A DNA stretch of 64,000 nucleotides from Eledone cirrhosa (GCA_964016885.1 OZ024764.1:26598001-26662000); one strand, 5' to 3'. Positions 5,737-35,785 are shown, numbered from the stretch's first letter. Numbers and translations: made by a program. The notes: generated by a model not told the origin, from the sequence alone.

Positions 5737-5760
5737 ATTTCTCAGTCTCTCAGGGTATAT
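5700..5760. repeat. Perfect palindrome, 30-bp arms with a 1-nt centre
   Basis: atataccctgagagactgagaaatctcttt-g-aaagagatttctcagtctctcagggtatat. Confidence 0.97.
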
Positions 5761-11638: not shown

Positions 11639-12173
11639 TACTAAAGAGTATGTAAAATTTTAAAATAAATACTTAAATTCAATTTGTATAATTACACATA
11701 CAATATGTTTTGTTGTAAAACCCTAAATAATGATTTAAGAAATGATGTCAATCTCTTTGTACAGAGAAAAACAATTTATATATATGCATTGTGTGCGCGT
11801 GTATACTCCATTTAAGACAGTGAAAAACCTAGTACCTCCTTCAAAGAATGCCAAATAGTTTATGCCTAAGGTGTAACACTAATTAAGTTACCGGTGTAGA
11901 TATTTCAGTTGAACCCTGCTTCAAACATGCATATTATTATTATATATTTTCAAACACACTTACATACATTATATTTATACACATAGAAATAATAAGTTAA
12001 AACTAAAGTATAATGATATAACAACAGTATATAATAGTTTTCTTCACTTTATTGAAATGCAATCGTTTTAAAGAAAAAACATGACAGTATAAGAAATATT
12101 TAATATGATAACATAATATTTCAGGTAGGATGGTCGTTTCTCTATGATGGTGGTTTCTCTTTGAACTAATAAT

Positions 12174-12339
12174 TGTTTCTATTTTAGGCACAAGGTCAGT
12201 AATTAACCAGTACATTACTGGTACTTTATTTTATCGACCCCGTAAGGATGAAAGGCAAAGTTGACCTCGGATCGTAAAGGGACGTAACTATGCTGGAAAG
12301 CATGGCGTCAGACCCTCTACCGATACTGCCAATTCACCA
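12174..12339 (-). mobile_element. tRNA-derived SINE, internally deleted
   Basis: tactggtactttattttatcgaccccgtaaggatgaaaggcaaagttgacctcgg core. The B-box segment is missing. Confidence 0.85.
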
Positions 12340-12529
12340 TACAGTATAATTATACAAATATGCATATAGATAGCAATATATATACACTAATATGTATGTA
12401 CATATTTACACATATGTACATATATATAGGGAGAGAGAGAGACACATGTATGTATATATATATACACATGCGTGTATGCATGTGTGTTTATGTACATTCT
12501 TCGGTATATATATCGGTATACACATTGGA

Positions 12530-12793
12530 GACACAGAGAGAGAGAGTTGAAACGAGAGGTGAGAGAGTTGAAACAAGAGAGGAGATGGTTGAAACACGAG
12601 GAGAGAGAGAGAGTTGAAACGAGAGGAGAGAGAGAGAGTTGAAACGAGGAGAGAGTTGAAACAAGAGGGTGAGGGGAGAGAGGAAGAGAGAGAGAGAGAG
12701 GAAGAGAGAGAGAGGGGATGAGAGAGAGGAATAGAGATAGAGGGGAAGAGAGAGAGGGGGAGAGAAGGGGATGAAACAACAGAGAGAGGGGAT

Positions 12794-12834
<41 letters not shown>

Positions 12835-15800
12835 ATTGAAACAAGAGAGAGATGAAACAAGTGAGGGATTAGAGAGAGATGAAACAAGTGAGGGATTAGA
12901 GTGTTGAAACAAGAGAGAGAGAGCGAGATGAAATGAGAGAAAGAGAGTGAGATGAAATGAGAGAGTGGGAGCGAGATGAAACGAGACAGGGAGAGCGAGA
13001 TGAAATGAGAGAGTTAGAGTGAGATGAAACGAGAGAGTGAGAGCGAGATGAAACGAGAGACAGAGAGCGCGAGATGACACGAGACAGAGAGCGAGATGAA
13101 ATGAGAGAGAGAGAGTGAGAGAGAGAGATGAAACGAGAGAGAGAGTGCGAGATGAAACGAGAGTGAGAGAGCGAGATGAAACGAGAGAGTGAGAGCGAGA
13201 TGAAATGAGAGAGAGAGAGAACGAGATGAAATGAGAGAGAGAGAGAGCGAGATGAAATGAGACATAGAGAGATGAAACGAGAGAGAGATGAAACGAGAAA
13301 GAGAGGAAACGAGAGAGAGGAAACGTGAGTAGAGAGCGAGATGAAACAGGAGCGAGAGAGCGAGATGAAACGAGAGGGAGAGAGAGATGAAACGAGAGCG
13401 AGAGAGAGATAGAGGGAAATGAAACGTCAGAGAGAGAGACAGATGAAACGAGGGATATAGAGATGAAACGAGAGAGAGAGATGAAACGAGAGAGAGGAAG
13501 AGAGAGATAGAACGAGAGAGAGGAAGAGAGAGATGAAACGAGAGAGAAGAAGAGAGAGGTGAAACGAGAGAGAGAGCGAGATGAAACGAGAGAGAGAGCG
13601 AGATGAAACGAGAGAGAGGAAGAGAGAGAGCGAGAGATGAAACTCTGTCATGGACATATCTGACCCTGGGGCTAATAATTGTCATGTAATGTTATGGACA
13701 TCTCTGCCCCTGTGGCTAATAATTCTGTCATGTAATGTTATGGACATCTCTGCCCCTGTGGCTAATAATTCTGTCATGTAATGTTATGGAAATCTCTGCC
13801 CCTGTGGCTAATAATTCTGACATGTAATGTTATGGAATCTCTGCCCCTGTGGCTAATAAATCTGTCATTTGATGTTACGGACATCTCTGCCCCTGTGGCT
13901 AATAAATCTGTCATGTAATGTTATGGACATCTCTGCCCCTGTGGCTAATAATTGTGACATGTAATGTTATGGACATCTCTGCCCCTGTAGCTAATAATTC
14001 TGACATGTAATGTTATGGACATCTCTGCCCCTGTTGCTAATAAATTCGTCATGTAATGTTATGGACATCTCTGCCCCTGTGGCTAATAAATCTGTCATGT
14101 AATGTTATGGACATCTCTGCCCCTGTGGCTAATAATTCTGACATGTAATGTTATGGACATCTCTGCCCCTGTGGCTAATAATTCTGACATGTAATGTTAT
14201 GGACATCTCTGCCCCTGTGGCTAATAATTCTGAGAGAGATGAAACAAGTGAGGGATTAGAGAGAGATGAAACAAGTGAGGGATTAGAGTGTTGAAACAAG
14301 AGAGAGAGAGGAAGAGAGAGTGAGAGCGAAATCAAACGAGAGAGAGCGAGATGAAATGAGAGAGTGAGAGCGAGATGAAACGAGAGAGAGAGAGAGAGAG
14401 AGCGAGATGAAATGAGAGAGAGAGAGCGAGATGAAATGAGAGAGAGAGAGCGAGATGAAACGAGACAGAGAGAGCGGGATGAAACGAGACAGAGAGAGCG
14501 AGAGCGAGATGAAACGAGACAGAGAGAGCGAGATGAAACGAGAGAGAGAGAGCGAGATGAAATGAGAGAGAGAGAGCGAGATAAAATGAGAGAGAGAGAG
14601 CGAGATGAAACGAGAGAGTGAGAGCGAGATGGAACGAGACAGAGAGAGCGAGATGAAACGAGAGTGGGAGAGCTAGATGAAACGAGAGAGAGAGGAAATG
14701 AGAGAGACGAAACGAGAGAGAGGAAACGAGAGTAGAGAGCGAGATGAAACAGGAGAGAGAGAGCGAGATGAAACAGGAGCGAGAGAGCGAGATGAAACGA
14801 GAGGGAGAGAGAGATGAAACGAGAGAGCGAGAGAGATATAGAGGGAGATGAAACGACAGAGAGAGAGACAGATGAAACGAGGGAGATAGAGATGAAACGA
14901 GAGAGAGAGATGAAACGAGAGAGAGGAAGAGAGAGATGGAACGAGAGAGAGGAAGAGAGAGATGGAACGAGAGAGAGGAAGACAGAGATGAAACGAGAGA
15001 GAGAGAGAGCAAGATGAAACGAGAGAGAGAGATGAAACGAGAGAGAGGAAGAGAGAGATGGAACGAGAGAGAGGAAGAGAGAGATGGAACGAGCGAGAGG
15101 AAGACAGAGATGAAACGAGACAGAGAGAGATCGAGATGAAACGAGAGAGAGGAAGAGAGAGAGCGCAAGATGAAACGAGAGAGAGATAGAGAGCGAGATG
15201 AAACGAGAGAGAGGAAGAGAGAGAGCGCGAGATGAAACGAGAGAGAGGAAGAGAGAGAGAGCGCGAGATGAAATGAGAGAGAGAGAGCGAGATGAAATGA
15301 GAGATTGAGAGTGAGATGAAACGAGAGAGTGAGAGAGAGCGAGATGAAATGAGAGAGAGAGAGCGAGATGAAATGAGAGGGAGAGAGAGCGAGATGAAAC
15401 GAGACAGAGAGAGCGGGATGAAACGAGACAGAGAGATCGAGATGAAATGAGAGAGAGAGAGCGAGATGAAATGAGAGAGAGAGAGCGAGATGAAACGAGA
15501 GAGTGAGAGCGAGATGGAACGAGTCAGAGAGAGCGAAATGAAACGAGAGAGTGAGAGCTAGATGAAACGAGAGAGAGAGGAAACGACAGAGAGTGGAAAC
15601 GAGAGAGAGGAAACGAGAGAGAGGAAACGAGAGTAGAGAGCAAGATGAAACAGGAGAGAGAGAGAGCGAGATGAAACCGGAGAGAGAGAGCGAGATGAAA
15701 CGAGAGGGAGGGAGAGATGAAACGAGAGAGCGAGAGAGAGATAGAGGGAGATGAAACGAGAGAGTGATAGCTAGATGAAACGAGAGAGAGAGGAATAGAG

Positions 15801-18800
15801 AGATGGAACGAGAGAGAGGAAGACAGATATGAAACGAGAGAGAGAGAGAGCGAGATGAAACGAGAGAGAGGAAGAGAGAGAGCGCGAGATGAAAGTCTGT
15901 CATGTAATGTTATGGACATATCTGCCCTTGGGGCTAATAATTGTCATGTAATGTTATGGACATATCTACCCTTGGGGCTAATAATTGTCATGTAATGTTA
16001 TGTACATCTCTGCCCCTGTGGCAAATAATTCTGTCATGTAATGTTATGGACATCTCTGTCCCTGTGGCTAATAATTATGTCATGTAATGTTATGGACATC
16101 TCTGCCCCTGTGGCTAATAATTCTGTCATGTAATGTTATGGACATCTCTGCCCCTGTGGCTAATAAATTCGTCATGTAATGTTATGGACATCTCTGCCCC
16201 TGTGGCTAATAAATCTGTCATGTAATGTTATGGACATCTCTGCCCCTGTGGCTAATAATTCTGACATGTAATGTTATGGATATCTCTGCCCCTGTGGCTA
16301 ATAATTCTGAGAGTGATGAAACAAGTGAGGGATAAGAGAGAGATGAAACAAATGAGGGATTAGAGTGTTGAAACAAGAGAGAGAGAGGAAGAGAGAGTGA
16401 GAGCGAGATCAAACGAGAGAGAGAGAGCGAGATGAAATGAGAGAGTGAGAGCGAGATGAAACGAGAGAGAGAGAGCGAGATGAAATGAGAGAGCGAGAGC
16501 GAGATGAAATGAGAGAGAGAGAGCGAGATGAAACGAGACAGAGAGAGCGAGATGAAACGAGAGAGAGAGGAAACGAGAGAGAGGATACGAGAGAGAGGAA
16601 ACGAGAGTAGAGAGCGAGATGAAACAGGAGAGAGAGAGCGAGATGAAACAGGAGAGAGAGAGCGAGATGAAACGAGAGGGTGAGAGAGATGAAACGAGAG
16701 AGCGAGAGAGAGATAGAGGGAGATGAAACGACAGAGAGAGAGACAGATGAAACGAGGGAGATAGAGATGAAACGAGAGAGAGAGATGAAACGAGAGAGAG
16801 GAAGAGAGAGATGGAACGAGAGAGAGGAAGAGAGAGATGGAACGAGAGAGAGGAAGACAGAGATGAAACGAGAGAGAGAGAGAGCGAGATGAAACGAGAG
16901 AGAGGAAGAGAGAACGCGAGATGAAACGAGAGAGAGAGAGAGCAAGATGAAACGAGAGAGAGGAAGAGAGAGAGCGCAAGATGAAACGAGAGAGAGAGCG
17001 CGAGATGAAAGTCTGTCATGTAATGTTATGGACATATCTGCCCTTGGGGCTAATAATTGTCATGTAATGTTATGGAAATCTCTGCCTCTGTGGCTAATAA
17101 TTCTTTCATGTAATGTTATGGACATCTCTGCCCCTGTGGCTAATAATTCTGTCATGTAATGTTATGGACATCTCTGCCCCTGTGGCTAATAAATCTGTCA
17201 TGTAATGTTATGGACATCTCTGCCCCTGTGGCTAATAATTCTGACATGTAATGTTATGGACATCTCTGCCCCTGTGGCTAATAAATATGACATGTAATGT
17301 TATGGACATCTCTGCCCCTGTGGCTAATAAATCTGTCATGTAATGTTATGGACATCTCTGCCCCTGTGGCTAATAATTCTGACATGTAATGTTATGGACA
17401 TCTCTGCCCCTGTGGCTAATAATTCTGAGAGAGATGAAACAAGTGAGGGATTAGAGAGAGATGAAACAAGTGAGGGATTAGAGTGTTGAAACAAGAGAGA
17501 GAGAGAGAGGAAGAGAGAGTGGGAGCGAAATCAAACGAGAGAGAGCGAGATGAAATGAGAGAGTGAGAGCGAGATGAAACGAGAGAGAGAGAGAGAGCGA
17601 GATGAAATGAGAGAGAGACAGCGAGATGAAATGAGAGAGAGAGAGCGAGATGAAACGAGACAGAGAGAGCGGGATGAAACGAGACAGAGAGAGCGAGAGC
17701 GAGATGAAACGAGACAGAGAGAGCGAGATGAAACGAGAGAGAGAGAGCGAGATGAAATGAGAGAGAGAGAGCGAGATGAAATGAGAGAGAGAGAGCGAGA
17801 TGAAACGAGAGAGTGAGAGCGAGATGGAACGAGACAGAGAGAGCGAGATGAAACGAGAGTGGGAGAGCTAGATGAAACGAGAGAGAGAGGAAACGAGAGA
17901 GACGAAACGAGAGAGAGGAAACGAGAGTAGAGAGCGAACTGAAACAGGATAGAGAGAGCGAGATGAAACAGTAGAGAGAGAGCGAGATGAAACGAGAGGG
18001 AGAGAGAGATGAAACGAGAGAGCGAGATAGAGGGAGATGAAACGACAGAGAGAGAGACAGATGAAACGAGGGAGATAGAGATGAAACGAGAGAGAGAGAT
18101 GAAACGAGAGAGAGGAAGAGAGAGATGGAACGAGAGAGAGGAAGGGAGAGATGGAACGAGAGAGAGGAAGACAGAGATGAAACGAGAGAGAGAGAGAGCA
18201 AGATGAAACGAGAGAGAGAGATGAAACGAGAGAGAGGAAGAGAGAGATGGAACGAGAGAGAGGAAGAGAGAGATGGAACGAGCGAGAGGAAGACAGAGAT
18301 GAAACGAGACAGAGAGAGATCGAGATGAAACGAGAGAGAGGAAGAGAGAGAGCGCAAGATGAAACGAGAGAGAGAGAGAGGAAGAGAGAGAGCGCGAGAT
18401 GAAATGAGAGAGAGAGAGCGAGATGAAATGAGAGATTGAGAGTGAGATGAAACGAGAGAGTGAGAGAGAGCGAGATGAAATGACAGAGAGAGAGCGAGAT
18501 GAAATGAGAGAGAGAGAGCGAGATGAAACGAGACAGAGAGAGCGGGATGAAACGAGACAGAGAGATCGAGATGAAATGAGAGAGAGAGAGCGAGATGAAA
18601 TGAGAGAGAGAGAGCGAGATGAAACGAGAGAGTGAGAGCGAGATGGAACGAGTCAGAGAGAGCGAGATGAAACGAGAGAGTGAGAGCTAGATGAAACGAG
18701 AGAGAGAGGAAACGAGAGAGAGAGGAAACGAGAGAGAGGAAACGAGAGAGAGGAAACGAGAGTAGAGAGCAAGATGAAACAGGAGAGAGAGAGAGCGAGA

Positions 18801-21800
18801 TGAAACCGGAGAGAGAGAGCGAGATGAAACGAGAGGGAGGGAGAGATGAAACGAGAGAGCGAGAGAGAGATAGAGGGAGATGAAACGAGAGAGTGATAGC
18901 TAGATGAAACGAGAGAGAGAGGAATAGAGAGATGGAACGAGAGAGAGGAAGACAGATATGAAACGAGAGAGAGAGAGAGCGAGATGAAACGAGAGAGAGG
19001 AAGAGAGAGAGCGCGAGATGAAACGAGAGAGAGAGAGCGAGATGAAACGAGAGAGAGAGCGAGATGAAACGAGAGAGAGGAAGAGAGAGAGCGCGAGATG
19101 AAAGTCTGTCATGTAATGTTATGGACATATCTGCCCTTGGGGCTAATAATTGTCATGTAATGTTATGGACATATCTACCCTTGGGGCTAATAATTGTCAT
19201 GTAATGTTATGTACATCTCTGCCCCTGTGGCAAATAATTCTGTCATGTAATGTTATGGATACCTCTGTCCCTGTGGCTAATAATTATGTCATGTAATGTT
19301 ATGGACATCTCTGCCCCTGTGGCTAATAATTCTGTCATGTAATGTTATGGACATCTCTGCCCCTGTGGCTAATAAATTCGTCATGTAATGTTATGGACAT
19401 CTCTGCCCCTGTGGCTAATAAATCTGTCATGTAATGTTTTGGACATCTCTTCCCCTGTGGCTAATAATTCTGACATGTAATGTTATGGATATCTCTGCCC
19501 CTGTGGCTAATAATTCTGAGAGAGATGAAACAAGTGAGGGATAAGAGAGAGATGAAACAAGTGAGGGATTAGAGTGTTGAAACAAGAGAGAGAGAGGAAG
19601 AGAGAGTGAGAGCGAGATCAAACGAGAGAGAGAGAGCGAGATGAAATGAGAGAGTGAGAGCGAGATGAAATGAGAGAGAGAGAGCGAGATGAAATGAGAG
19701 AGAGAGAGCGAGATGAAACGAGACAGAGAGAGCGAGGTGAAACGAGAGAGAGAGAGAGCGAAATGAAACGAGACAGATTAGAGCGAGATGAAACGAGAGA
19801 GAGAGAGCAAGATGAAATGAGAGAGAGAGAGCGAGATGAAACGAGAGAGTGAGAGCTAGAGGAAACGATAGAGACAGGAAACGAGAGAGAGAGGAAACGA
19901 GAGAGAGGATACGAGAGAGAGGAAACGAGAGTAAAGAGCGAGATGAAACAGGAGAGAGAGAGCGAGATGAAACGAGACAGAGAGAGCGAGGTGAAACGAG
20001 AGAGAGAGAGAGCGAAATGAAACGAGACAGATTAGAGCGAGATGAAACGAGAGAGAGAGAGCAAGATGAAATGAGAGAGAGAGAGCGAGATGAAACGAGA
20101 GAGTGAGAGCTAGAGGAAACGATAGAGACAGGAAACGAGAGAGAGAGGAAACGAGAGAGAGGATACGAGAGAGAGGAAACGAGAGTAAAGAGCGAGATGA
20201 AACAGGAGAGAGAGAGCGAGATGAAACAGGAGAGAGAGAGCGAGATGAAACGAGAGGGAGAGTGAGATGAAACGAGAGAGCGAGAGAGAGATAGAGGGAG
20301 ATGAAACGACAGAGAGAGAGACAGATGAAACGAGGGAGATAGAGATGAAACGAGAGAGAGAGATGAAACGAGAGAGAGGAAGAGAGAGATGGAACGAGAG
20401 AGAGGAAGAGAGAGATGGAACGAGAGAGAGGAAGACAGAGATGAAACGAGAGAGAGAGAGAGCGAGATGAAACGAGAGAGAGGAAGAGAGAGAACGCGAG
20501 ATGAAACGAGAGAGAGAGCAAGATGAAACGAGAGAGAGGAAGAGAGAGAGCGCAAGATGAAACGAGAGAGAGAGAGCGCGAGATGAAAGTCTGTCATGTA
20601 ATGTTATGGACATATCTGCCCTTGGGGCTAATAATTGTCATGTAATGTTATGGAAATCTCTGCCCCTGTGGCTAATAATTCTGTCATGTAATGTTATGGA
20701 CATCTCTGCCCCTGTGGCTAATAATTCTGTCATGTAATGTTATGGACATCTCTGCCCCTGTGGCTAATAAATCTGTCATGTAATGTTATGGACATCTCTG
20801 CCCCTGTGGCTAATAATTCTGACATGTAATGTTATGGACATCTCTGCCCCTGTGGCTAATAAATATGACATGTAATGTTATGGACATCTCTGCCCCTGTG
20901 GCTAATAAATCTGTCATGTAATGTTATGGACATCTCTGCCCCTGTGGCTAATAATTCTGACATGTAATGTTATGGACATCTCTGCCCCTGTGGCTAATAA
21001 ATCTGTCATGTAATGTTATGGACATCTCTGCCCCTGTGGCTAATAATTCTGACATGTAATGTTATGGACATCTCTGCCCCTGTGGCTAATAATTCTGTCA
21101 TGTAATGTTATGGACATCTCTGCCCCTGTGGCTAATAAATTCGTCATGTAATGTTATGGACATCTCTGCCCCTGTGGCTAATAAATCTGTCATGTAATGT
21201 TATGGACATCTCTGCCCCTGTGGCTAATAATTCTGACATGTAATGTTATGGATATCTCTGCCCCTGTGGCTAATAATTCTGAGAGAGATGAAACAAGTGA
21301 GGGATAAGAGAGAGATGAAACAAATGAGGGATTAGAGTGTTGAAACAAGAGAGAGAGAGGAAGAGAGAGTGAGAGCGAGATCAAACGAGAGAGAGAGAGC
21401 GAGATGAAATGAGAGAGTGAGAGCGAGATGAAACGAGAGAGAGAGAGCGAGATGAAATGAGAGAGCGAGAGCGAGATGAAATGAGAGAGAGAGAGCGAGA
21501 TGAAACGAGACAGAGAGAGCGAGATGAAACGAGAGAGAGAGAGAGCGAAATGAAACGAGACAGATTAGAGCGAGATGAAACGAGAGAGAGAGAGAGCGAG
21601 ATGAAATGAGAGAGAGAGAGCGAGATGAAACGAGAGAGTGAGAGCTAGAGGAAACGAGAGAGAGAGGAAACGAGAGAGAGGATACGAGAGAGAGGAAACG
21701 AGAGTAGAGAGCGAGATGAAACAGGAGAGAGAGAGCGAGATGAAACAGGAGAGAGAGAGCGAGATGAAACGAGAGGGAGAGAGAGATGAAACGAGAGAGC

Positions 21801-24800
21801 GAGAGAGAGATAGAGGGAGATGAAACGACAGAGAGAGAGACAGATGAAACGAGGGAGATAGAGATGAAACGAGAGAGAGAGATGAAACGAGAGAGAGGAA
21901 GAGAGAGATGGAATGAGAGAGAGGAAGAGAGAGATGGAACGAGAGAGAGGAAGACAGAGATGAAACGAGAGAGAGAGAGAGAGCGAGATGAAACGAGAGA
22001 GAGGAAGAGAGAACGCGAGATGAAACGAGAGAGAGAGAGAGCAAGATGAAACGAGAGAGAGGAAGAGAGAGAGCGCAAGATGAAACGAGAGAGAGAGCGC
22101 GAGATGAAAGTCTGTCATGTAATGTTATGGACATATCTGCCCTTGGGGCTAATAATTGTCATGTAATGTTATGGAAATCTCTGCCTCTGTGGCTAATAAT
22201 TCTTTCATGTAATGTTATGGACATCTCTGCCCCTGTGGCTAATAATTCTGTCATGTAATGTTATGGACATCTCTGCCCCTGTGGCTAATAAATCTGTCAT
22301 GTAATGTTATGGACATCTCTGCCCCTGTGGCTAATAATTCTGACATGTAATGTTATGGACATCTCTGCCCCTGTGGCTAATAAATATGACATGTAATATT
22401 ATGGACATCTCTGCCCCTGTGGCTAATAAATCTGTCATGTAATGTTATGGACATCTCTGCCCCTGTGGCTAATAATTCTGACATGTAATGTTATGGACAT
22501 CTCTGCCCCTGTGGCTAATAATTCTGAGAGAGATGAAACAAGTGAGGGATTAGAGAGAGATGAAACAAGTGAGGGATTAGAGTGTTGAAACAAGAGAGAG
22601 AGAGAGGAAGAGAGAGTGAGAGCGAAATCAAACGAGAGAGAGCGAGATGAAATGAGAGAGTGAGAGCGAGATGAAACGAGAGAGAGAGAGAGAGCGAGAT
22701 GAAATGAGAGAGAGAGAGAGCGAGATGAAATGAGAGAGAGAGAGCGAGATGAAACGAGACAGAGAGAGCGGGATGAAACGAGACAGAGAGAGCGAGAGCG
22801 AGATGAAACGAGACAGAGAGAGCGAGATGAAACGAGAGAGAGAGAGCGAGATGAAATGAGAGAGAGAGAGCGAGATGAAACGAGAGAGTGAGAGCGAGAT
22901 GGAACGAGACAGAGAGAGCGAGATGAAACGAGAGTGGGAGAGCTAGATGAAACGAGAGAGAGAGGAAACGAGAGAGACGAAACGAGAGAGAGGAAACGAG
23001 AGTAGAGAGCGAGATGAAACAGGAGAGAGAGAGCGAGATGAAACAGGAGAGAGAGAGCGAGATGAAACGAGAGGGAGAGAGAGATGAAACGAGAGAGCGA
23101 GAGAGAGATAGAGGGAGATGAAACGACAGAGAGAGAGACAGATGAAACGAGGGAGATAGAGATGAAACGAGAGAGAGAGATGAAACGAGAGAGAGGAAGA
23201 GAGAGATGGAACGAGAGAGAGGAAGGGAGAGATGGAACGAGAGAGAGGAAGACAGAGATGAAACGAGAGAGAGAGAGAGCAAGATGAAACGAGAGAGAGA
23301 GATGAAACGAGAGAGAGGAAGAGAGAGATGGAACGAGAGAGAGGAAGAGAGAGATGGAACGAGCGAGAGGAAGACAGAGATGAAACGAGACAGAGAGAGA
23401 TCGAGATGAAACGAGAGAGAGGAAGAGAGAGAGCGCAAGATGAAACGAGAGAGAGAGAGAGAGCGAGATGAAACGAGAGAGAGGAAGAGAGAGAGCGCGA
23501 GATGAAACGAGAGAGAGGAAGAGAGAGAGCGCGAGATGAAATGAGAGAGAGAGAGCGAGATGAAATGAGAGATTGAGAGTGAGATGAAACGAGAGTGTGA
23601 GAGAGAGCGAGATGAAATGACAGAGAGAGAGCGAGATGAAATGAGAGAGAGAGAGCGAGATGAAACGAGACAGAGAGAGCGGGATGAAACGAGACAGAGA
23701 GATCGAGATGAAATGAGAGAGAGAGAGCGAGATGAAATGAGAGAGAGAGAGCGAGATGAAACGAGAGAGTGAGAGCGAGATGGAACGAGTCAGAGAGAGC
23801 GAGATGAAACGAGAGAGTGAGAGCTAGATGAAACGAGAGAGAGAGGAAACGAGAGAGAGAGGAAACGAGAGAGAGGAATCGAGAGAGAGGAAACGAGAGT
23901 AGAGAGCAAGATGAAACAGGAGAGAGAGAGAGCGAGATGAAACCGGAGAGAGAGAGCGAGATGAAACGAGAGGGAGGGAGAGATGAAACGAGAGAGCGAG
24001 AGAGAGATAGAGGGAGATGAAACGAGAGAGTGATAGCTAGATGAAACGAGAGAGAGAGGAATAGAGAGATGGAACGAGAGAGAGGAAGACAGATATGAAA
24101 CGAGAGAGAGAGAGAGAGCGAGATGAAACGAGAGAGAGGAAGAGAGCGCGAGATGAAACGAGAGAGAGAGAGCGAGATGAAACGAGAGAGAGAGCGAGAT
24201 GAAACGAGAGAGAGGAAGAGAGAGAGCGCGAGATGAAAGTCTGTCATGTAATGTTATGGACATATCTGCCCTTGGGGCTAATAATTGTCATGTAATGTTA
24301 TGGACATATCTACCCTTGGGGCTAATAATTGTCATGTAATGTTATGTACATCTCTGCCCCTGTGGCAAATAATTCTGTCATGTAATGTTATGGACACCTC
24401 TGTCCCTGTGGCTAATAATTATGTCATGTAATGTTATGGACATCTCTGCCCCTGTGGCTAATAAATTCGTCATGTAATGTTATGGACATCTCTGCCCCTG
24501 TGGCTAATAAATCTGTCATGTAATGTTTTGGACATCTCTTCCCCTGTGGCTAATAATTCTGACATGTAATGTTATGGATATCTCTGCCCCTGTGGCTAAT
24601 AATTCTGAGAGAGATGAAACAAGTGAGGGATAAGAGAGAGATGAAACAAGTGAGGGATTAGAGTGTTGAAACAAGAGAGAGAGAGGAAGAGAGAGTGAGA
24701 GCGAGATCAAACGAGAGAGAGAGAGCGAGATGAAATGAGAGAGTGAGAGCGAGATGAAACGAGAGAGAGAGAGCGAGATGAAATGAGAGAGAGAGAGCGA

Positions 24801-25953
24801 GATGAAATGAGAGAGAGAGAGCGAGATGAAACGAGACAGAGAGAGCGAGGTGAAACGAGAGAGAGAGCGAAATGAAACGAGACAGATTAGAGCGAGATGA
24901 AACGAGAGAGAGAGAGAGCAAGATGAAATGAGAGAGAGAGAGCGAGATGAAACGAGAGAGTGAGAGCTAGAGGAAACGATAGAGAGAGGAAACGAGAGAG
25001 AGAGGAAACGAGAGAGAGGATACGAGAGAGAGGAAACGAGAGTAGAGAGCGAGATGAAACAGGAGAGAGAGAGCGAGATGAAACAGGAGAGAGAGAGCGA
25101 GATGAAACGAGAGGGAGAGTGAGATGAAACGAGAGAGCGAGAGAGAGATAGAGGGAGATGAAACGACACAGAGAGAGACAGATGAAACGAGGGAGATAGA
25201 GATGAAACGAGAGAGAGAGATGAAACGAGAGAGAGGAAGAGAGAGATGGAACGAGAGAGAGGAAGAGAGAGATGGAACGAGAGAGAGGAAGACAGAGATG
25301 AAACGAGAGAGAGAGAGAGCGAGATGAAACGAGAGAGAGGAAGAGAGAGAACGCGAGATGAAACGAGAGAGAGAGCAAGATGAAACGAGAGAGAGGAAGA
25401 GAGAGAGCGCAAGATGAAACGAGACAGAGAGAGCGCGAGATGGAAGTCTGTCATGTAATGTTATGGACATATCTGCCCTTGGGGCTAATAATTGTCATGT
25501 AATGTTATGGAAATCTCTGCCCCTGTGGCTAATAATTCTGTCATGTAATGTTATGGACATCTCTGCCCCTGTGGCTAATAAATCTGTCATGTAATGTTAT
25601 GGACATCTCTGCCCCTGTGGCTAATAAATCTGTCATGTAATGTTATGGACATCTCTGCCCCTGTGGCTAATAATTCTGACATGTAATGTTATGGACATCT
25701 CTGCCCCTGTGGCTAATAAATATGACATGTAATGTTATGGACATCTCTGCCCCTGTGGCTAATAAATCTGTCATGTAATGTTATGGACATCTCTGCCCCT
25801 GTGGCTAATAATTCTGACATGTAATGTTATGGACATCTCTGCCCCTGTGGCTAATAAATCTGTCATGTAATGTTATGGACATCTCTGCCCCTGTGGCTAA
25901 TAATTCTGACATGTAATGTTATGGACATCTCTGCCCCTGTGGCTAATAATTCT
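12530..25953 (+). repeat. Composite satellite, left arm (GA on top strand): eight GA-rich cassettes alternating with 46-bp arrays
   Basis: 46-bp unit tgtcatgtaatgttatggacatctctgcccctgtggctaataattc (period 46, e.g. 13681 to 13727). Arrays at ~13644-14232, 15896-16308, 17012-17427, 19104-19518, 20589-21281, 22110-22526, 24239-24607, 25446-25953. Cassettes are made of (GA)n-GCGAGATGAAA(C/T) modules. Confidence 0.97.
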
Positions 25954-28900
25954 GATTTATTAGCCACAGGGGCAGAGATGTCCATAACATTACATGACAG
26001 AATTATTAGCCACAGGGGCAGAGATTTCCATAACATTACATGTCAGAATTATTAGCCACAGGGGCAGAGATGTCCATAACATTACATGTCAGAATTATTA
26101 GCCACAGGGGCAGAGATGTCCATAACATTACATGACAGAATTATTAACCACAGGGGCAGAGATGACCATAACATTACATGACAATTATTAGACACAGGGG
26201 CAGATATGTCAATAACGTTACATGACAGAGTTTCATCTTGCGCTCTCTCTCTCTCGTTTCATCTCGCTCTCCCTCTCTCTCGTTTCATCTCTGTCTTCCT
26301 CTCTCTCGTTTCATCTCGCTCTCTCTCTCGTTTCATCTCTGTCTTCCTCTCTCTCGTTCCATCTCTCTCTTCCTCTCTCTCGTTCCATCTCTCTCTTCCT
26401 CTCTTTCGTTTCATCTCTATCTCCCTTCTTTCATCTGTCTCTCTCTCTGTCGTTTCATCTCGCGCTCTCTCTCTCTCGTTTCATCTTGCGCTCTCTCTCT
26501 CTCGTTTCGTCTTGCTCTCTCTCTCTCTCGTTTCATCTCTGTCTTCCTCTCTCTCGTTCCATCTCTCTATTCCTCTCTCTCGTTCCATCTCTCTCATCCT
26601 CTCTCTCGTTTCATCTCTATCTCCCTCCTTTCATCTGTCTCTCTCTCTGTCGTTTCATCTCGCGCTCTCTCTCTCTCTCGTTTCATCTTGCGCTCTCTCT
26701 CTCTCGTTTCATCTCGTTCTCTCTCTCGTTTCATCTCTGTCTTCCTCTCTCTCGTTCCATCTCTCTCTTCCTCTCTCTCGTTCCATCTCTCTCTTCCTCT
26801 CTCTCGTTTCATCTCTATCTCCCTTCTTTCATCTGTCTCGCTCTCTGTCGTTTCATCTCGCGCTCTCTCTCTCTCGTTTCATGTCGCGCTCTCTCTCTCT
26901 CGTTTCATCTCGCTCTCTCTCTCTCGTTTCATCTCTGTCTTCCTCTCTCTCGTGCCATCTCTCTCTTCCTCTCTCTCTTCCTCTCTCTCGTTTCATCTCT
27001 ATCTCCCTTGTTTCATCTCTCTCTCGCTCTCTCGTTTCATCTCTCTCTCCCTCTCGTTTCATCTCGCTCTCTCTCTCCTGTTTCATCTCGCTCTCTCTCT
27101 CTCGTTTCATCTCTGTCTTCCTCTCTCTCGTGCCATCTCTGTCTTCCTCTCTCTCGTTCCATCTCTCGCTTCCTCTCTCTCGTTTCATCTCGCTCTCCCT
27201 CGTTTCATCTCTCTCTCGCTCTCTCGTTTCATCTCTCTCTCCCTCTCATTTCATCTCGCTCTCTCTCTCCTGTTTCATCTGGCTCTCTCTCTCTCCTGTT
27301 TCATCTCGCTCTCTACTCTCGTTTCCTCTCTCTCGTTTCATCTCTCTCTCCCCCCCGTTTCATCTCGCTCTCTCTCTCTCATTTCATCTCGCTCTCTCTC
27401 TCTCGTTTCATCTCGCTCTCCCTCTCTCGTTTCATCCCGCTCTCACTCTCTCATTTCTTCTCGCTCTCTCTCTCTCTTGTTTCAACACTCTAATCCCTCA
27501 CTTGTTTACTATCTCTCAGAATTATTAGCCACAGGGGCAGAGATGACCATAACATTACATGGCAGAATTATTAGCCACAAGGGCAGAGATGTCCATAACA
27601 TTACATGACAGAATTATTAGCCACAGGGGCAGAGATGACCATAACATTACATGACAATTATTAGCCACAGGGGCAGATATGTCAATAACATTACATGACA
27701 GAGTTTCATCTCGCGCTCTCTCTCTCTCGTTTCATCTTGCGCTCTCTCTCTCTCTCGTTTCATCTTGCTCTCTCTCTCGTTTCATCTCTGTCTTCCTCTC
27801 TCTCGTTCCATCTCTCTCTTCCTCTCTCTAGTTCCATCTCTCTCATCCTCTCTCTCGTTTCATCTCTATCTCCCTCCTTTCATCTGTCTCTCTCTCTGTC
27901 GTTTCATCTCGCGCTCTCTCTCTCTCGTTTCATCTCGCGCTCTCTCTGTCTCGTTTCATCTCGCTCTCTCTCTCTCTCGTTTCATCTCTGTCTTCCTCTC
28001 TCTCGTTCCATCTCTCTCTTCCTCTCTCTCGTTCCATCTCTCTCTTCCTCTCTCTCGTTTCATCTCTATCTCCCTCGTTTCATCTCTCTCTCGCTCTCTC
28101 GTTTCATCTCTCTCTCCCGCTCGTTTCTTTTCGCTCTCTCTCTCCTGTTTCATCTCGCTCTCTACTCTCGTTTCCTCTCTCTCATTTCCTCTCTCTCTCG
28201 TTTCCTCTCTGTCTCGTTTCATCTCGCTCTCTCTCTTTCTCGTTTGATCTCGCTCTCACTCTCTCGTTTCATCTCGCTTCTCTCACTCTCTTGTTTCATC
28301 TCGCTCTCTCTCTCTCTTCCTCTCTCTCTCTTGTTTCAACACTCTAATCCCTCACTTGTTTTATCTCTCTCTAATCCCTCACTTGGTTCATCTCTCTCAG
28401 AATTATTAGCCACAGGGGCAGAGATGTCCATAACATTACATGTCAGAATTATTAGCCACAGGGCAGAGATGTCCATAACATTACATGTCAGAATTATTAG
28501 CCACTGGGGCAGAGATGTCCATAACATTACATGTCAGAATTATTAGCCACAGGGGTAGAGATGTCCATAACATTACATGTCAGAATTATTAGCCACAGGG
28601 GCAGAGATGTCCATAACATTACATGACAGAATTATTAGCCACAGGGGCAGTGATGTCCATAACATTACATGACAATTATTAGCCCCAAGGGCAGATATGT
28701 CCATAACATTACATGACAGAGTTCCATCTCGCGCTCTCTCTCTTCCTCTCTCTCGTTTCATCTCGCTCTCTCTCTCTCGTTTCATCTCGCTCTCTCGTTT
28801 CATCTCGCTCTCTCGTTTCATCTCGCTCTCCCTCGTTTCATCTCTGTCTTCCTCTCTCTCGTTCCATCTCTCTCTTCCTCTCTCTCGTTCCATCTCTCTC

Positions 28901-31900
28901 TTCCTCTCTCTCGTTTCATCTCTATCTCCCTCGTTTCATCTCTCTCTCCCTCTCGTTTCATCTCGCTCTCTCTCTCCTGTTTCATCTCGCTCTCTACTCT
29001 CGTTTCCTCTCTCTCGTTTCCTCTCTGTCTCGTTCCATCCCGCTCTCTCTCTCTCTCATTACATCTCGCTCTCTCTGTCTCGTTTCATCTCGCTCTCTCT
29101 CTCTCTCGTTTCATCTCGCTCTCACTCTCTCGTTTCATCTCGCGTTTCATCTCACTCTCCCTGTCTCATTTCACCTCGCTCTCTCTCTCTCTTCCTCTCT
29201 CTCTCTTGTTTCAACACTCTAATCCCTCACTTGTTTTATCTCTCTCTAATCCCTCACTTGTTTCATCTCTTTCAGAATTATTAGCCACAGGGGCAGAGAT
29301 GTCCATAACATTACATGTCAGAATTATTAGCCACAGGGCAGAGATGTCCATAACATTACATGTCAGAGTTATTAGCCACAGGGGCAGAGATGTCCATAAC
29401 ATTACATGTCAGAATTATTAGCCACGGGGGCGGAGACGTCCATAACATTACATGACAGAATTATTAGCCACAGGGGCAGAGATGACCATAACATTACATG
29501 ACAATTATTAGCCACAGGGGCAGATATATCAATAACATTACATGATAGAGTTTCATCTCGCGCTCTCTCTCTCTCGTTTCATCTTGCTCTCTCTCTCTCT
29601 CGTTTCATCTCTGTCTTCCTCTCTCTCGTTCCATCTCTCTCTTCCTCTCTCTCGTTCCATCTCTCTCATCCTCTCTCTCGTTTCATCTCTATCTCCCTCC
29701 TTTCATCTGTCTCTCTCTGTCGTTTCATCTCGTGCTCTCTCTCTCTCGTTTCATCTCGCGCTCTCTCTGTCTCGTTTCATCTCGCTCTCTCTCTCTCTCG
29801 TTTCATCTCTGTCTTCCTCTCTCACGTTCCATCTCTCTCTTCCTCTCTCTCGTTCCATCTCTCTCTTCCTCTCTCTCGTTTCATCTCTATCTCCCTCGTT
29901 TCATCTCTCTCTCGCTCTCTCGTTTCATCTCTCTCTCCCTCTCGTTTCATCTCGCTCTCTACTCTCGTTTCCTCTCTCTCGTTTCCTCTCTGTCTCGTTC
30001 CATCCCGCTCTCTCTCTCTCACATTACATCTCGCTCTCTCTGTCTCGTTTCATCTCGCTCTCTCTCTCTCTCGTTTCATCTCGCTCTCACTCTCTCGTTT
30101 CATCTCGCTTCTCTCACTATTGCGTTTCATCTCGCTCTCCCTGTCTCATTTCATCTCGCTCTCTCTCTCTCTTCCTCTCTCTTGTTTCAACACCCTAATC
30201 CCTCACTTGTTTTATCTCTCTCTAATCCCTCACTTGTTTCATCTCTCTCAGAAATATTAGCCACAGGGGCAGAGATGTCCATAACATTACATGTCAGAAT
30301 TATTAGCCACAGGGCAGAGATGTCCATAACATTACATGTCAGAATTATTAACCACAGGGGCAGAGATGTCCATAACATTACATGTCAGAATTATTAGCCA
30401 CAGGGGCGGAGACGTCCATAACATTACATGACAGAATTATTAGCCACAGGGGCAGAGATGACCATAACATTACATGACAATTATTAGCCACAGGGGCAGA
30501 TATATCAATAACATTACATGAAAGAGTTTCATCTCGCGCTCTCTCTCTCTCGTTTCATCTTGCGCTCTCTCTCTCTCGTTTCATCTTGCTCTCTCTCTCT
30601 CTCGTTTCATCTCTGTATTCCTCTCTCTCGTTCCATCTCTCTATTCCTCTCTCTCGTTCCATCTCTCTCATCCTCTCTCTCGTTTTATCTGTATCTCCCT
30701 CCTTCAATCTGTCTCTCTCTCTGTCGTTTCATCTCGTGCTCTCTCTGTCTCGTTTCATCTCGCGCTCTCTCTGTCTCGTTTCATCTCGCTCTCTCTCTCT
30801 CTCTCGTTTCATCTCTGTCTTCCTCTCTCTCGTTCCATCTCTCTCTTCCTCTTTCTCGTTCCATCTCTCTCTTCCTCTCTCTCGTTTCATCTCTATCTCC
30901 CTCGTTTCATCTCTCTCTCGCTCTCTCGTTTCATCTCTCTCTCCCTCTCGTTTCATCTCGCTCTCTACTCTCGTTTCCTCTCTCTCGTTTCCTCTCTGTC
31001 TCGTTCCATCCCGCTCTCTCTCTCTCTCATTACATCTCGCTCTCTCTGTCTCGTTTCATCTCGCTCTCTCTCGCTCTCGTTTCATCTCGCTCTCACTCTC
31101 TCGTTTCATCTCGCTTCTCTCACTATTGCGTTTCATCTCGCTCTCCCTGTCTCATTTCATCTCGCTCTCTCTCTCTCTTCCTCTCTCTTGTTTCAACACC
31201 CTAATCCCTCACTTGTTTTATCTCTCTCTAATCCCTCACTTGTTTCATCTCTCTCAGAATTATTAGCCACAGGGGCAGAGATGTCCATAACATTACATGT
31301 CAGAGTTATTAGCCACAGGGGCAGAGATGTCCATAACGTTACATGACAATTATTAGCCCCAAGGGCAGATATGTCCATAACATTACATGACAGAGTTTCA
31401 TCTCGCGCTCTCTCTCTCTCGTTTCATCTCGCGCTCTCTCTCTTCCTCTCTCTCGTTTCATCTCGCTCTCTCTCTCTCTCGTTTCACCTCTGTCTTCCAT
31501 CTCTCTCTTCCTCTCTCTCGTTCCATCTCACTCTTCCTCTCTCTCATTTCATCTCTCTCTCTCGTTTCATCTCTATCTCTCTCTCTCGTTTCATCTGTCT
31601 CTCTCTCTGTCGTTTCATCTCCCTCTATCTCTCTCTCCCTCTCGTTTCATCTCGCTCTCTCTCTCCTGTTTCATCTCGCTCTCTCTCTCTCCTGTTTCAT
31701 CTCGATCTCACTCTCTCGTTTCATCTCGCTCTCTCTCTGTCTCGTTTCATCTCGCTCTCTCTCTCTCATTTCATCTCGCTCTCTCTCTCTCATTTCATCT
31801 CGCTCTCTCTCTCTCGTTTCATCTCGCTCTCACTCTCTCGTTTCATCTCGCTCTCACTCTCTCGTTTCATCTCGCTCTCCCTGTCCCGTTTCATCTCGCT

Positions 31901-34900
31901 CACACTCTCTCATTTCATCTCGCTCTCTCTCTCTTCTTTCAACACTCTAATCCCTCACTTGTTTCATCTCTCTCAGAATTATTAGCCACAGGGGCAGAGA
32001 TGACCATAACATTACATGTCAGAATTATTAGCCACAGGGGCAGAGATGTCCATAACATTACATGTCAGAATCATTAGCCACAGGGGCAGAGATGTCCATA
32101 ACATTACATGACAGAATTATTAGCCACAGGGGCAGAGATGACCATAACATTACATGACAATTATTAGCCACAGGGGCAGATATGTCAATAACATTACATG
32201 ACAGAGTTTCATCTCGCGCTCTCTCTCTCTCTCGTTTCATCTTGCGCTCTCTCTCTCTCGTTTCCTCTCGCTCTCTCTCTCTCTCGTTTCATCTCTGTCT
32301 TCCTCTCTCTCGTTCCATCTCTCTCTTCCTCTCTCTCGTTCAATCTCTCTCTTCCTCTCTCTCGTTTCATCTGTCTCTCTCTCTGTCGTTTCATCTCGCG
32401 CTCTCTCTCTCTCGTTTCATCTCGCGCTCTCTCTCTCTCATTTCATCTCGCTCTCTCTCTCTCTCGTTTCATCTCTGTCTTCCTCTCTCTCTTCCTCTCT
32501 CTCGTTCCATCTCTCTCTTCCTCTCTCTCGTTTCATCTCTATCTCCCTCGTTTCATCTCTCTCTCGCTCTCTCGTTTCATCTCTCTCTCCCTCTCGTCTC
32601 ATCTCGCTCTCTCTCTTCTGTTTCATCTCGCTCTCTACTCTCGTCTCCTCTCTGTCGTTTCCTCTCTGTCTCGTTTCATCTCGCTCTCCCTGTCTCATTT
32701 CATCTCGCTCTCTCTCTCTCTCTTCCTCTCTGTCTCTTGTTTCAACACTCTAATCCCTCACTTGTTTTATCTCTCTCTAATCCCTCACTTGTTTCATCTC
32801 TCTCAGAATTATTAGCCACAGGGGCAGAGATGTCCATAACATTACATGTCAGAGTTATTAGCCACAGGGGCAGAGATGTCCATAACGTTACATGACAATT
32901 ATTAGCCCCAAGGGCAGATATGTCCATAACATTACATGACAGAGTTTCATCTCGCGCTCTCTCTCTCTCGTTTCATCTCGCGCTCTCTCTCTTCCTCTCT
33001 CTCGTTTCATCTCGCTCTCTCTCTCTCTCGTTTCACCTCTGTCTTCCATCTCTCTCTTCCTCTCTCTCGTTCCATCTCACTCTTCCTCTCTCTCATTTCA
33101 TCTCTCTCTCTCGTTTCATCTCTATCTCTCTCTCTCGTTTCATCTGTCTCTCTCTCTGTCGTTTCATCTCCCTCTATCTCTCTCTCCCTCTCGTTTCATC
33201 TCGCTCTCTCTCTCCTGTTTCATCTCGCTCTCTCTCTCTCCTGTTTCATCTCGCTCTCTACTCTCGTTTCCTCTCTCTCTCCCTCCTGTTTCATCTCGCT
33301 CTCTCTCTCTCGTTTCATCTCGCTCTCACTCTCTCGTTTCATCTCGCTCTCTCTCTGTCTCGTTTCATCTCGCTCTCTCTCTCTCATTTCATCTCGCTCT
33401 CTCTCTCTCGTTTCATCTCGCTCTCACTCTCTCGTTTCATCTCGCTCTCACTCTCTCGTTTCATCTCGCTCTCCCTGTCTCGTTTCATCTCGCTCACACT
33501 CTCTCATTTCATCTCGCTCTCTCTCTCTTCTTTCAACACTCTAATCCCTCACTTGTTTCATCTCTCTCAGAATTATTAGCCACAGGGCAGAGATGTCCAT
33601 AACATTACATGTCAGAATTATTAGCCACAGGGGCAGAGATGTCCATAACATTACATGACAGAGTTTCATCTCGCTCTCTCTCTCTCTCGTTTCATCAGTG
33701 TCTTCCTCTCTCTCGTTCCATCTCTCTCTTGCTCTCTCTCGTTCCATCTCTATCTTCATCTCTCTCGTTTCATCTCTATCTCCCTCCTTTCATCTGTCTC
33801 TCTCTCTGTCGTTTCATCTCGCGCTCTCTCTCTCTCGTTTCATCTCGCGCTCTCTCTCTCTTTCTCTCTCTCGTTTCATCTCTATCTCCCTCGTTTCATC
33901 TGTCTCTCGCTCTCTCGTTTCATCTCTCTCTCCCTCTCGTTTCATCTCGCTCTCTACTCTCGTTTCCTCTCTCTCGCGTTCCATCCCACTCTCTCTCTCT
34001 CTCATTACATCTCGCTCTCTCTGTCTAGTTTCATCTCGCTCTCTCTCTCTCTCTCGTTTCATCTCGCTCTCACTCTCTCGTTTCATCTCGCTTCTCTCAC
34101 TCTCGTGTTTCATCTCGCTCTCCCTGTCTCATTTCATCTCGCTCTCTCTCTCTCTTCCTCTCTCTCTCTTGTTTCAACACTCTAATCCCTCACTTGTTTT
34201 ATCTCTCTCTAATCCCTCACTTGTTTCATCTCTCTCAGAATTATTAGCCACAGGGGCAGAGATGTCCATAACATTACATGTCAGAATTATTAGCCACAGG
34301 GCAGAGATGTCCATAACATTACACGTCAGAATTATTAGCCACAGGGGCAGAGATGTCCATAACATTACATGACAGAATTATTAGCCACAGGGGCAGAGAT
34401 GTCCATAACATTACATGTCAGAATTATTAGACACAGGGCAGAGATGTCCATAACATTACATGTCAGAATTATTAGCCACAGGGGCAGAGATGTCCATAAC
34501 ATTACATGTCAGAATTATTAGCCACAGGGGCCGAGATGTCCATAACATTACATGAAAGAATTATTAGCCACAGGGGCAGAGATGTCCATAACATTACATG
34601 ACAGAATTATTAGCCACAGGGGCAGAGATGTCCATAACATTACATGACAATTATTAGCCCCAAGGGCAGATATGTCCATAACATTACATGACAGAGTTTC
34701 ATCTGGCGCTCTCTCTCTTCCTCTCTCTCGTTTCATCTCTGTCTTCCTCTCTCTCGTTCCATCTCTCTCTTCCTCTCGCTCGTTCCATCTCTCTCTTCCT
34801 CTCTCTCGTTTCATCTCTATCTCCCTCCTTTCATCTGTCTCTCTCTCTGTCGTTTCATCTCGCGCTCTCTCTCTCTCGTTTCATCTCGCGCTCTCTCTCT

Positions 34901-35610
34901 CTCGTTTCATCTCTCTCTCTCTCTCGTTTCATCTCTGTCTTCCTCTCTCTCGTTCCATCTCTCTCTTCCTCTCTCTCGTTTCATCTCTATCTCCCTCGTT
35001 TCATCTCTCTCTCCCTCTCGTTTCATCTCGCTCTCTCTCTCCTGTTTCATCTCGCTCTCTACTCTCGTTTCCTCACTCTCGTTTCCTCTCTCTCTCGTTT
35101 CCTCTCTGTCTCGTTCCATCCCGCTCTCTCTCTCTCTCATTACATCTCGCTCTCTCTGTCTCGTTTCATCTCGCTCTCTCTCTCTCTCGTTTCATCTCGC
35201 TCTCACTCTCTCGTTTCATCTCGCTTCTCTCACTCTCGCGTTTCATCTCGCTCTCCCTGTCTCATTTCATCTCGCTCTCTCTCTCTCTTCCTCTCTCTCT
35301 CTTGTTTCAACACTCTAATCCCTCACTTGTTTTATCTCTCTCTAATCCCCCACGTGTTTCATCTCTCTCAGAATTATTAGCCACAGGGGCAGAGATGTCC
35401 ATAACATTACATGTCAGAATTATTAGCCACAGGGCAGAGATGTCCATAACATTACATGTCAGAATTATTAACCACAGGGGCAGAGATGTCCATAACATAA
35501 CATGACAGAATTATTAGCCGCAGGGGCAGAGATGTCCATAACATTACATGACAGAATTATTAGCCACAGGGGCAGATATGTCCATAACATTACATGACAG
35601 AGTTTCATCT
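25954..35610 (-). repeat. Composite satellite, right arm (inverted; CT on top strand), about ten shorter cassettes
   Basis: Reverse-complement 46-bp unit gaattattagccacaggggcagagatgtccataacattacatg(ac/tc)a alternates with gtttcatctcgc(tc)n cassettes of ~0.55-1.3 kb. Confidence 0.97.
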
Positions 35611-35649
35611 GGTTGGAGTAATAACAGTCTTGTTTATGTATATACACAC

Positions 35650-35681: not shown

Positions 35682-35785
35682 GTTTGTTCTTGTATTTCTA
35701 TAGAAAAGGTAAAGAAAAGAAGAATGCTCTATGTATTGTACAGAGCTATTTAATTACATAATAAACAACAGAATATAATTATTCC

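What the first reader, a model, noticed from the sequence alone, without database searches (positions are those of the whole stretch)
12530..35610. 23-kb two-component satellite arranged as a giant inverted repeat with a 7-nt apex
Seen: the satellite reads GA-top for ~13.4 kb and CT-top for ~9.7 kb. The switch lies inside a 46-bp array at ggctaataa-ttctgat-ttattagcc (loop 25950-25956), with no foreign spacer. The identical junction recurs at 57719-57725. Inference: one foldback event created a palindrome that survived, expanded and was duplicated. Long, nearly spacer-less palindromes are normally unstable, so its persistence suggests stabilisation by arm divergence or a structural role (heterochromatin, centromere or hairpin-RNA locus).
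Basis: partly seen in the sequence, partly recalled or inferred. Interest (0 to 1): 0.75.

Follow-up and report, generated by a model that had tools for sequence, protein, structure and literature searches.

The report
One old satellite inversion, copied 66×
This back-to-back satellite is real DNA present in 66 copies with the same central join, but its two arms are not mirror copies: it is likely one old inversion inside a repeat array that was later copied as part of a larger repeated block, and its centre likely persists because ordinary repeat turnover would not remove it.

Summary
Observation confirmed; interpretation revised. The orientation switch (loop 25950-25956, repeated at 57719-57725) occurs at 66 sites on three large contigs and one small one, always with the same T·T mismatch. 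It sits in a 17-50 kb tandem macro-unit with Helitron and SINE relics. Short reads from another study cross it (read indirectly from depth). It is not a 23-kb palindrome: arms pair in register for only about 220 bp at 96%, no better than random monomers, and left and right arms are separate sub-families (5% shared 61-mers; 61-75% between equivalent arms of related copies). One-directional relatives, a second opposite junction (16 copies) and a copy with only five inverted monomers point to an internal inversion, later flipped by arm-to-arm crossover, expanded per arm and amplified. The apex is intact in 48 of 51 anchored copies; recombination between direct repeats cannot delete it (inferred), so no function is needed. 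Closest known: Tribolium satellite macro-dyads.

The parts
12530..25953 (+). Left arm, copy 1: 8 higher-order units (46-mer array of 8-15 monomers, 27-mer x2, GA-rich tract); 'L' sub-family
25950..25956 (.). Head-to-head junction J1: 1-nt centre, 2-bp TC/GA microhomology, T·T mismatch; 66 of 66 genomic sites carry this asymmetric form
25954..35610 (-). Right arm, copy 1: 11 arrays of 1-8 monomers; 'R' sub-family
35609..35612 (+). 4-bp CTGG microhomology joining the right arm to the Helitron-relic flank; likely a deletion that removed the second junction; 35 genomic copies
35765..38137 (+). Dead Helitron RepHel relic (many stops, internal deletions); Pif1 2B domain at 37739-38137; the Helitron label rests on this domain plus recalled motifs
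   Evidence: PF21530, E 5e-14; 1 of 6 pieces hit
11714..12530 (+). Shared left flank of the macro-unit (SINE-like pieces, recalled); 99% copy at 46559-47160
47160..57722 (+). Left arm, copy 2 (start of arm deleted relative to copy 1)
57719..57725 (.). Junction J1, copy 2
57723..64000 (-). Right arm, copy 2; about 1.8 kb beyond the window it ends in the tail-to-tail junction J2, five forward monomers and the ancestral right flank
5757..6557 (.). Separate 89-bp palindromic satellite in the same macro-unit (copy at 8462-9262), next to a 61-bp foldback of the Helitron piece (5700-5760)

Best explanation
The structure is a satellite 'macro-dyad' whose central join is present in 66 copies, likely born once as an inversion inside a one-directional composite satellite and then copied passively inside a tandem 17-50 kb block. 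Steps: (1) A one-directional array sat between fixed flanks (shown to exist today; ancestral status inferred). (2) A microhomology-guided inversion or template switch inside a 46-mer array made a head-to-head join J1 (TC/GA) and a tail-to-tail join J2 (ACA) (joins shown; one common event inferred). (3) A crossover between oppositely oriented 46-mer arrays flipped J1 relative to the flanks and put kilobases of higher-order units into the inverted arm (both polarities shown; order inferred). (4) Each arm expanded and homogenised separately (shown as separate sub-families). (5) In this window's first copy J2 was lost by a 4-bp microhomology deletion (inferred). (6) The whole block was amplified in tandem and spread between contigs (shown). 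J1 likely persists because exchange between direct repeats of one arm cannot delete it and exchange between arms only flips it, while the pairable stem is short and interrupted (inferred).
For: Copy number and fixed form: 58 exact 29-nt matches; 66 of 66 sites of a pattern that also allows symmetric forms keep the T·T mismatch (50 sites listed, the other 16 matched). Shared flanks 94-99% identical on C18, C20 and C25. Arms separate: 61-mer sharing L vs R 0.03-0.08 in all pairs of 8 copies; L_w1 vs L_3 0.61, R_w1 vs R_3 0.75; longest exact L/R match 92-143 bp against 724-1081 bp between equivalent arms of the closest copies. Variant 46A: 119 of 407 L monomers vs 2 of 304 R monomers on C25, 26 of 95 vs 2 of 124 on C20. 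In 32 fetched junctions the in-register arm is a median 220 bp (35-248) with 4.1% mismatch, against 5.0% for random L/R monomer pairs. One-directional relatives with the same flanks at C1:212.6 Mb and C18:25.0-25.1 Mb. J2 in 16 copies; in the 8 of them fetched it is followed by forward monomers and the right flank of the one-directional copies. A copy with only about 5 inverted monomers between J1 and J2 at C18:34.938 Mb. J1 in reversed polarity to the left flank in C18 copies, and one copy with the left flank at both ends. Apex intact in 48 of 51 copies anchored by a distal junction, point-mutated in 1, deleted in 2, while arm length varies from about 3 to 18 kb.
Against: The order of steps 2 and 3 is not shown. 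The small C18 copy groups with neighbouring C18 arms and could be a deletion product of a large form. The phase fit between J1 and J2 has about a 13-25% chance of being coincidence (my estimate). A third tail-to-tail join (C20:27.349 Mb, C644) also leads back to the ancestral flank, so J2 may not be the original partner. On a tree of 230-bp pieces L and R are clustered but not monophyletic (5 and 6 changes; shuffled means 15.9 and 20.4), so some exchange between arms occurred. No neutral expectation for apex loss was computed, so 2 of 51 does not by itself exclude selection. No long reads, chromatin or RNA data were available.
Confidence: 0.7

Rival explanations
1. A functional macro-dyad: the apex or arms form a hairpin or cruciform, or give a long double-stranded RNA, and are kept by selection (centromere, heterochromatin or small-RNA locus), as proposed for Tribolium.
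For: The apex sequence is nearly invariant (66 of 66). A folded single strand would be stable (-65 kcal/mol for 121 nt, DNA parameters). The unit is full of transposon relics and other foldbacks. The same idea is published as a hypothesis for Tribolium (PMC12581902, PMC13081366; passages).
Against: No excess symmetry at the apex over random monomers (4.1% vs 5.0%). No copy has been corrected to a perfect palindrome. Flanks are about as conserved as the apex (left-flank tree branches under 0.6%), so invariance is explained by recent copying. J1 lies on only 3 large contigs and 1 small one of 1796. Apex-deleted copies exist.
Confidence: 0.12
2. A true foldback duplication (snap-back or breakage-fusion-bridge) copied the left arm to make the right arm, which then diverged.
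For: Head-to-head join at a 2-bp microhomology with no foreign DNA. L-R divergence of 7-8% could in principle date from such an event.
Against: The T·T mismatch and different monomer series on the two sides. The opposite junction returns to the ancestral right flank. R arms keep the array-start variant of the one-directional C1 copy while L arms carry a derived one. Flanks are not mirrored. An inverted-triplication (ODIRA-type) form of step 2 is not excluded and is counted under the best explanation.
Confidence: 0.08
3. A mobile foldback or Helitron-derived element that carries the palindrome and spreads by its own transposition or rolling-circle copying.
For: A RepHel relic lies in the units examined; copies lie on several contigs.
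Against: All fetched copies share the same flanks rather than new insertion sites; satellite ends are microhomology joins that differ between copies, with no terminal repeat or target duplication seen. The shortest C18 units keep under 2 kb of non-satellite DNA. The RepHel is full of stops.
Confidence: 0.07
4. An assembly artefact from chimeric foldback long reads.
For: A palindrome at a satellite centre is a known HiFi artefact (recalled; an earlier unchecked note reports one in this genome).
Against: Arms 7-8% diverged; 66 copies with their own SNPs near the apex; no foreign bases at the apex. In two short-read runs from another study, about 27 and 22 reads start at 25948 and run over the apex into the right arm with no differing letters listed (read from the depth table).
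Confidence: 0.03

Closest known systems
Satellite macro-dyad symmetries of Tribolium freemani (TfSat01/TfSat03) and T. madens (TmSat1/TmSat2); PMC12581902, PMC13081366 (passages read)
   Same: Multi-kilobase arrays split into two inverted, unequal sub-arrays; inversion sites of a few fixed types, made of truncated monomers with no foreign spacer and a short loop (9-27 bp there, 7 here); identical sites on different chromosomes.
   Different: There: thousands of sites in major (peri)centromeric satellites on nearly all chromosomes. Here: 66 sites in a minor composite satellite on three large contigs, inside a macro-unit with transposon relics; arms are separate sub-families; the reciprocal junction, one-directional relatives and a small-inversion copy survive. 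PMC13081366 states that such structures were documented only in Tribolium. The octopus-like identity of this genome is recalled from its repeats and from earlier notes, not tested.
Inverted triplications by template switching (ODIRA; small inverted triplications); PMC10766186 (passages), PMC13334657 (abstract)
   Same: A head-to-head and a tail-to-tail junction at very short inverted microhomologies; the smallest copy has an inverted block of about 200 bp (160 bp on average in the abstract); secondary deletions widen or remove junctions.
   Different: In a tandem array a copy-number gain cannot be told from a simple inversion. Microhomologies are 2-3 bp (6 bp on average in the abstract). Here the product is fixed and amplified in the germ line.
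Unstable quasi-palindromes (320-bp Alu inverted repeats, 12-bp spacer, 94-100% identity); PMC3855049 (passages)
   Same: Similar pairable length and identity (about 220 bp, 96%); occasional loss of the centre.
   Different: Embedded in tandem repeats, so out-of-register pairing and homologous repair from neighbours are available; most copies persist.

Membership tests
Satellite macro-dyad (Tribolium type) | Array made of kilobase-long inverted sub-arrays of unequal length | tested here: met
Satellite macro-dyad (Tribolium type) | Conserved inversion site of truncated monomers, no foreign spacer, short loop | tested here: met
Satellite macro-dyad (Tribolium type) | Identical inversion site on different chromosomes | tested here: met
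   C18, C20, C25 (contigs of 29-44 Mb), C644
Satellite macro-dyad (Tribolium type) | Major satellite present on nearly all chromosomes | tested here: not met
   J1 on 4 of 1796 contigs; 4161 exact 37-mers genome-wide, only the first 100 places seen
Satellite macro-dyad (Tribolium type) | (Peri)centromeric position | not testable with these tools
   needs CENP-A ChIP or FISH
True foldback palindrome (one arm a copy of the other) | Arms of one copy more alike than arms of different copies | tested here: not met
   0.03-0.08 vs up to 0.87 shared 61-mers; C18 copies: 0.09-0.12 vs 0.83-0.90
Inverted triplication (ODIRA/SIT) | Paired head-to-head and tail-to-tail junctions at short inverted microhomology | tested here: met
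Inverted triplication (ODIRA/SIT) | Net gain of two extra copies of the segment | tested here: inconclusive
   monomers too alike and array lengths too variable
Foldback DNA transposon | Mirrored termini, target-site duplication, unrelated flanks at each copy | tested here: not met
   same non-mirrored flanks in fetched copies; ends are microhomology joins
Active or intact Helitron | Intact RepHel and TC...CTRR ends bounding the unit | tested here: inconclusive
   RepHel broken by many stops; termini not searched for systematically

The most novel reading that the evidence does not exclude
A satellite macro-dyad system outside Tribolium in which the apex is actively kept: the foldback-rich, transposon-relic macro-unit on three chromosomes acts as a structural (cruciform or loop) or hairpin-RNA locus, with the purine strand always running toward the apex.
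Probability: 0.12. Interest if true: 0.7.

Novelty: new variant of a known kind. Interest (0 to 1): 0.4.

Why it matters
Conserved inversion sites in Tribolium satellites have been read as hints of structural function. Here the same signature (invariant spacer-less switch on several chromosomes) comes with its one-directional relatives, its reciprocal junction, a small-inversion form, flipped forms and apex-deleted forms. That gives a worked neutral route to the pattern and a set of natural controls for testing function. It would also extend macro-dyads beyond beetles. It does not reveal a new element or gene.

Tried and rejected
Rfam at gathering threshold on the window: 0 matches. ARAGORN on 464 kb from three contigs: 0 tRNA genes. 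So no structural-RNA cluster explains the macro-unit. A blastn of the Helitron relic against phages found nothing and was uninformative. Pfam hit 1 of 6 relic pieces. Run search: no RNA holder listed, which is no evidence on expression. The first read lay (91 bases) could not separate junction reads from monomer reads; no listed contig spanned the stretch. In the second lay, contigs of X4 and of X5 (another organism label) gave 0 laid, which is no proof of absence. X5 does hold the 46-mer with adjoining 27-mer and GA pieces. The tree of array-start pieces did not give clean L and R clades. The painting of region C25g printed empty through a coordinate slip; that region is described. In one search the J2 at C20:27,237,287 was paired by distance with the J1 of the neighbouring unit; one search shows its own apex is deleted, so I count 15 of 16. 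The regions for one search were partly chosen because they lacked an exact J1, so loss rates come from the anchor census, not from those regions. Literature: 9 searches; 'macro-dyad' is held by 5 papers (4 listed), two on Tribolium and two citing one of them only in the reference list; nothing on this satellite turned up. PMC232404 is not held. No supplements were read; those of the Tribolium papers may bear on how inversion sites arise.

Full report
Observation. The satellite is a higher-order unit of a 46-bp array, a doubled 27-mer and a GA-rich tract. The left arm has 8 arrays on + and the right arm 11 on -. The join can be read as a 1-nt centre, a 2-bp TC/GA pair and a T·T mismatch, followed by a 40-bp perfect stem; register is lost at about 231 bp. 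The mismatch falls on a common A/T polymorphism of the monomer, so the two sides come from different monomers.

Genomic context. The window is G000:C25:26,598,001-26,662,000 in a 3.0-Gb genome. The 29-nt junction has 58 exact matches (C18 16, C20 5, C25 35, C644 2; control 0). A shorter pattern that also admits symmetric versions finds 66 sites; the 50 listed and the 16 accounted for all keep the asymmetric form. Sites lie at least 13 kb apart, with medians of 24-49 kb on the large contigs. In the stretches fetched (about 1 Mb, covering 32 junctions), copies share flanks at 94-99%: SINE-like pieces on the left and a dead Helitron RepHel on the right. The dyad is therefore cargo of a tandem macro-unit, not an independently inserted element. 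That the repeats look octopus-like is recalled and echoed by earlier unchecked notes; I did not test it.

Is it real? Arms differ by 7-8%, copies carry their own SNPs near the apex, and there is no foreign sequence at the centre. On a 48-base stretch centred on the apex, two short-read runs of the same organism label from another study show depth steps at 25948 (X15: 367 to 382 and 20 to 32; X16: 496 to 506 and 12 to 24) that continue through the apex to the right end, with no differing letters listed. I read these as about 27 and 22 reads that begin at the AATT in the last left monomer (probably the library's cut site; inferred) and cross the join. This is indirect: no read with 31 letters on both sides was shown, and contigs of X4 and X5 gave 0.

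The arms are not mirror copies. Across 8 copies on C25 and C20, left and right arms share 3-8% of 61-mers, whether in the same copy or not. Equivalent arms of related copies share up to 87%, and 9-46% (L) or 15-41% (R) between contigs. Left arrays start with one variant and mostly hold 8-15 monomers; right arrays start with another and mostly hold 3-6. Variant 46A is in 119 of 407 left and 2 of 304 right monomers on C25. Over 32 junctions the in-register part is a median 220 bp with 4.1% mismatch, against 5.0% between random left and right monomers. So there is no sign of arm-to-arm correction at the apex. Against a clean split: a tree of 230-bp array-start pieces needs 5 and 6 changes for L and R, so some exchange has occurred.

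Origin. One-directional copies with the same flanks exist at C1:212.6 Mb and C18:25.0-25.1 Mb and end in a characteristic right flank. A tail-to-tail junction J2, at a 3-bp microhomology, occurs in 16 copies; in the 8 fetched it leads through about five forward monomers into that same flank. The window's second copy has it 1.8 kb past the window edge. At C18:34.938 Mb, J1 and J2 enclose only about five inverted monomers, with J1 in the polarity opposite to the window's. One crossover between an upstream forward array and that inverted block would give the window's layout. This predicts an older, more varied right arm and a younger left arm. Within-arm divergence is 6.3-6.6% for R and 3.7-4.5% for L, and R keeps the array-start variant of the C1 copy. 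In 35 copies, including the window's first, the right arm joins the Helitron flank at a 4-bp microhomology, likely a deletion of J2. C18 holds further recombinants, including one with the left flank at both ends. The order is inferred. The small copy groups with neighbouring C18 arms and may be a deletion product; a third tail-to-tail join exists; simple inversion and inverted triplication cannot be separated in a tandem array.

Persistence. Of 51 copies anchored by a distal junction, 48 have an intact J1, 1 a point change and 2 a deletion across the apex (with the correction noted under Tried and rejected). Arm lengths vary from about 3 to 18 kb. This fits recombination geometry (established knowledge, applied here by inference): exchange between direct repeats of one arm changes arm length but cannot span the apex, and exchange between arms inverts it. 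Only non-homologous deletion or loss of a whole unit removes it. Spacers and divergence are reported to lower palindrome instability (PMC3855049, PMC10766186; passages). The left flank is about as conserved as the apex, so apex invariance is what recent copying predicts. I did not compute a neutral loss rate, so selection is not excluded.

Comparison. The closest described structure is the satellite macro-dyad of Tribolium (PMC12581902, PMC13081366; passages): unequal inverted sub-arrays with conserved spacer-less inversion sites on several chromosomes. The authors propose a structural role but note that conservation may reflect how the arrays spread. PMC13081366 says such structures were documented only in Tribolium; a search for 'macro-dyad' gave 5 papers, 4 listed, with no other taxon among those listed. 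Inversions in satellite arrays as such are known, for example in maize CEN10 (PMC8997354; passage). This case meets the structural features but is not a major, genome-wide satellite. The lead to the Tribolium papers came from earlier notes; my inversion-plus-macro-unit reading was recorded before that look-up. Other papers seen: PMC13334657 (abstract), PMC8122249 and bioRxiv 10.64898/2026.09.17.752431 (passages, nothing decisive).

Verdict. A real satellite macro-dyad, new variant of a known kind. Most likely a frozen inversion amplified as cargo (0.7); a functional role is possible but unsupported (0.12). Interest 0.4, mainly as a natural control for functional claims about conserved inversion sites.

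Noticed in passing
window 5757-6557 and 8462-9262: An 89-bp satellite whose 800-bp array is itself a palindrome (94% to its own reverse complement) and whose monomer holds two hairpins; part of a 2.7-kb tandem sub-unit.
   Followed up: no
window 5700-5760 and 8405-8465: A 61-bp near-perfect foldback of the Helitron relic at the point where the 89-bp array begins; seen in other copies on C20 and C25.
   Followed up: partly
window 2117-3174, 40516-41574, 41658-43394: MITE-like inverted repeats with arms of about 450-600 bp, so the macro-unit carries at least four separate foldback structures.
   Followed up: no
G000:C25 26.5-28.0 Mb versus 28.65-29.1 Mb: The macro-unit array itself switches orientation: junction and flank markers are on + up to about 28.0 Mb and on - from 28.65 Mb, near the contig end at 29.35 Mb.
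   Followed up: no
L012-L013 region, G000:C25 about 26.668-26.677 Mb: A LINE-like insertion with a 940-residue open stretch in one unit copy, and a shorter version in another; could date the amplification. The family label is recalled.
   Followed up: no
L055:7760-7890 (G000:C7 about 42,172,760): Three 46-mers sit inside the head of a SINE-like repeat, apparently a captured piece of the satellite.
   Followed up: partly
L089:6075-7639 (G000:C25 14.686 Mb): A one-directional run of 35 monomers, the longest pure 46-mer array seen.
   Followed up: no
L081:6435-9263 (G000:C20 27.346-27.349 Mb): A compact copy where a J2-like start abuts unrelated DNA, followed by J1, three inverted arrays, a third tail-to-tail join with a 3-nt loop and the ancestral flank.
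   Followed up: partly
window 38713-39300: A 55-bp minisatellite of about 11 copies just after the Helitron relic.
   Followed up: no
run X5 (organism B): The 46-mer with adjoining 27-mer and GA pieces is present under another organism label; the junction was not seen there.
   Followed up: partly
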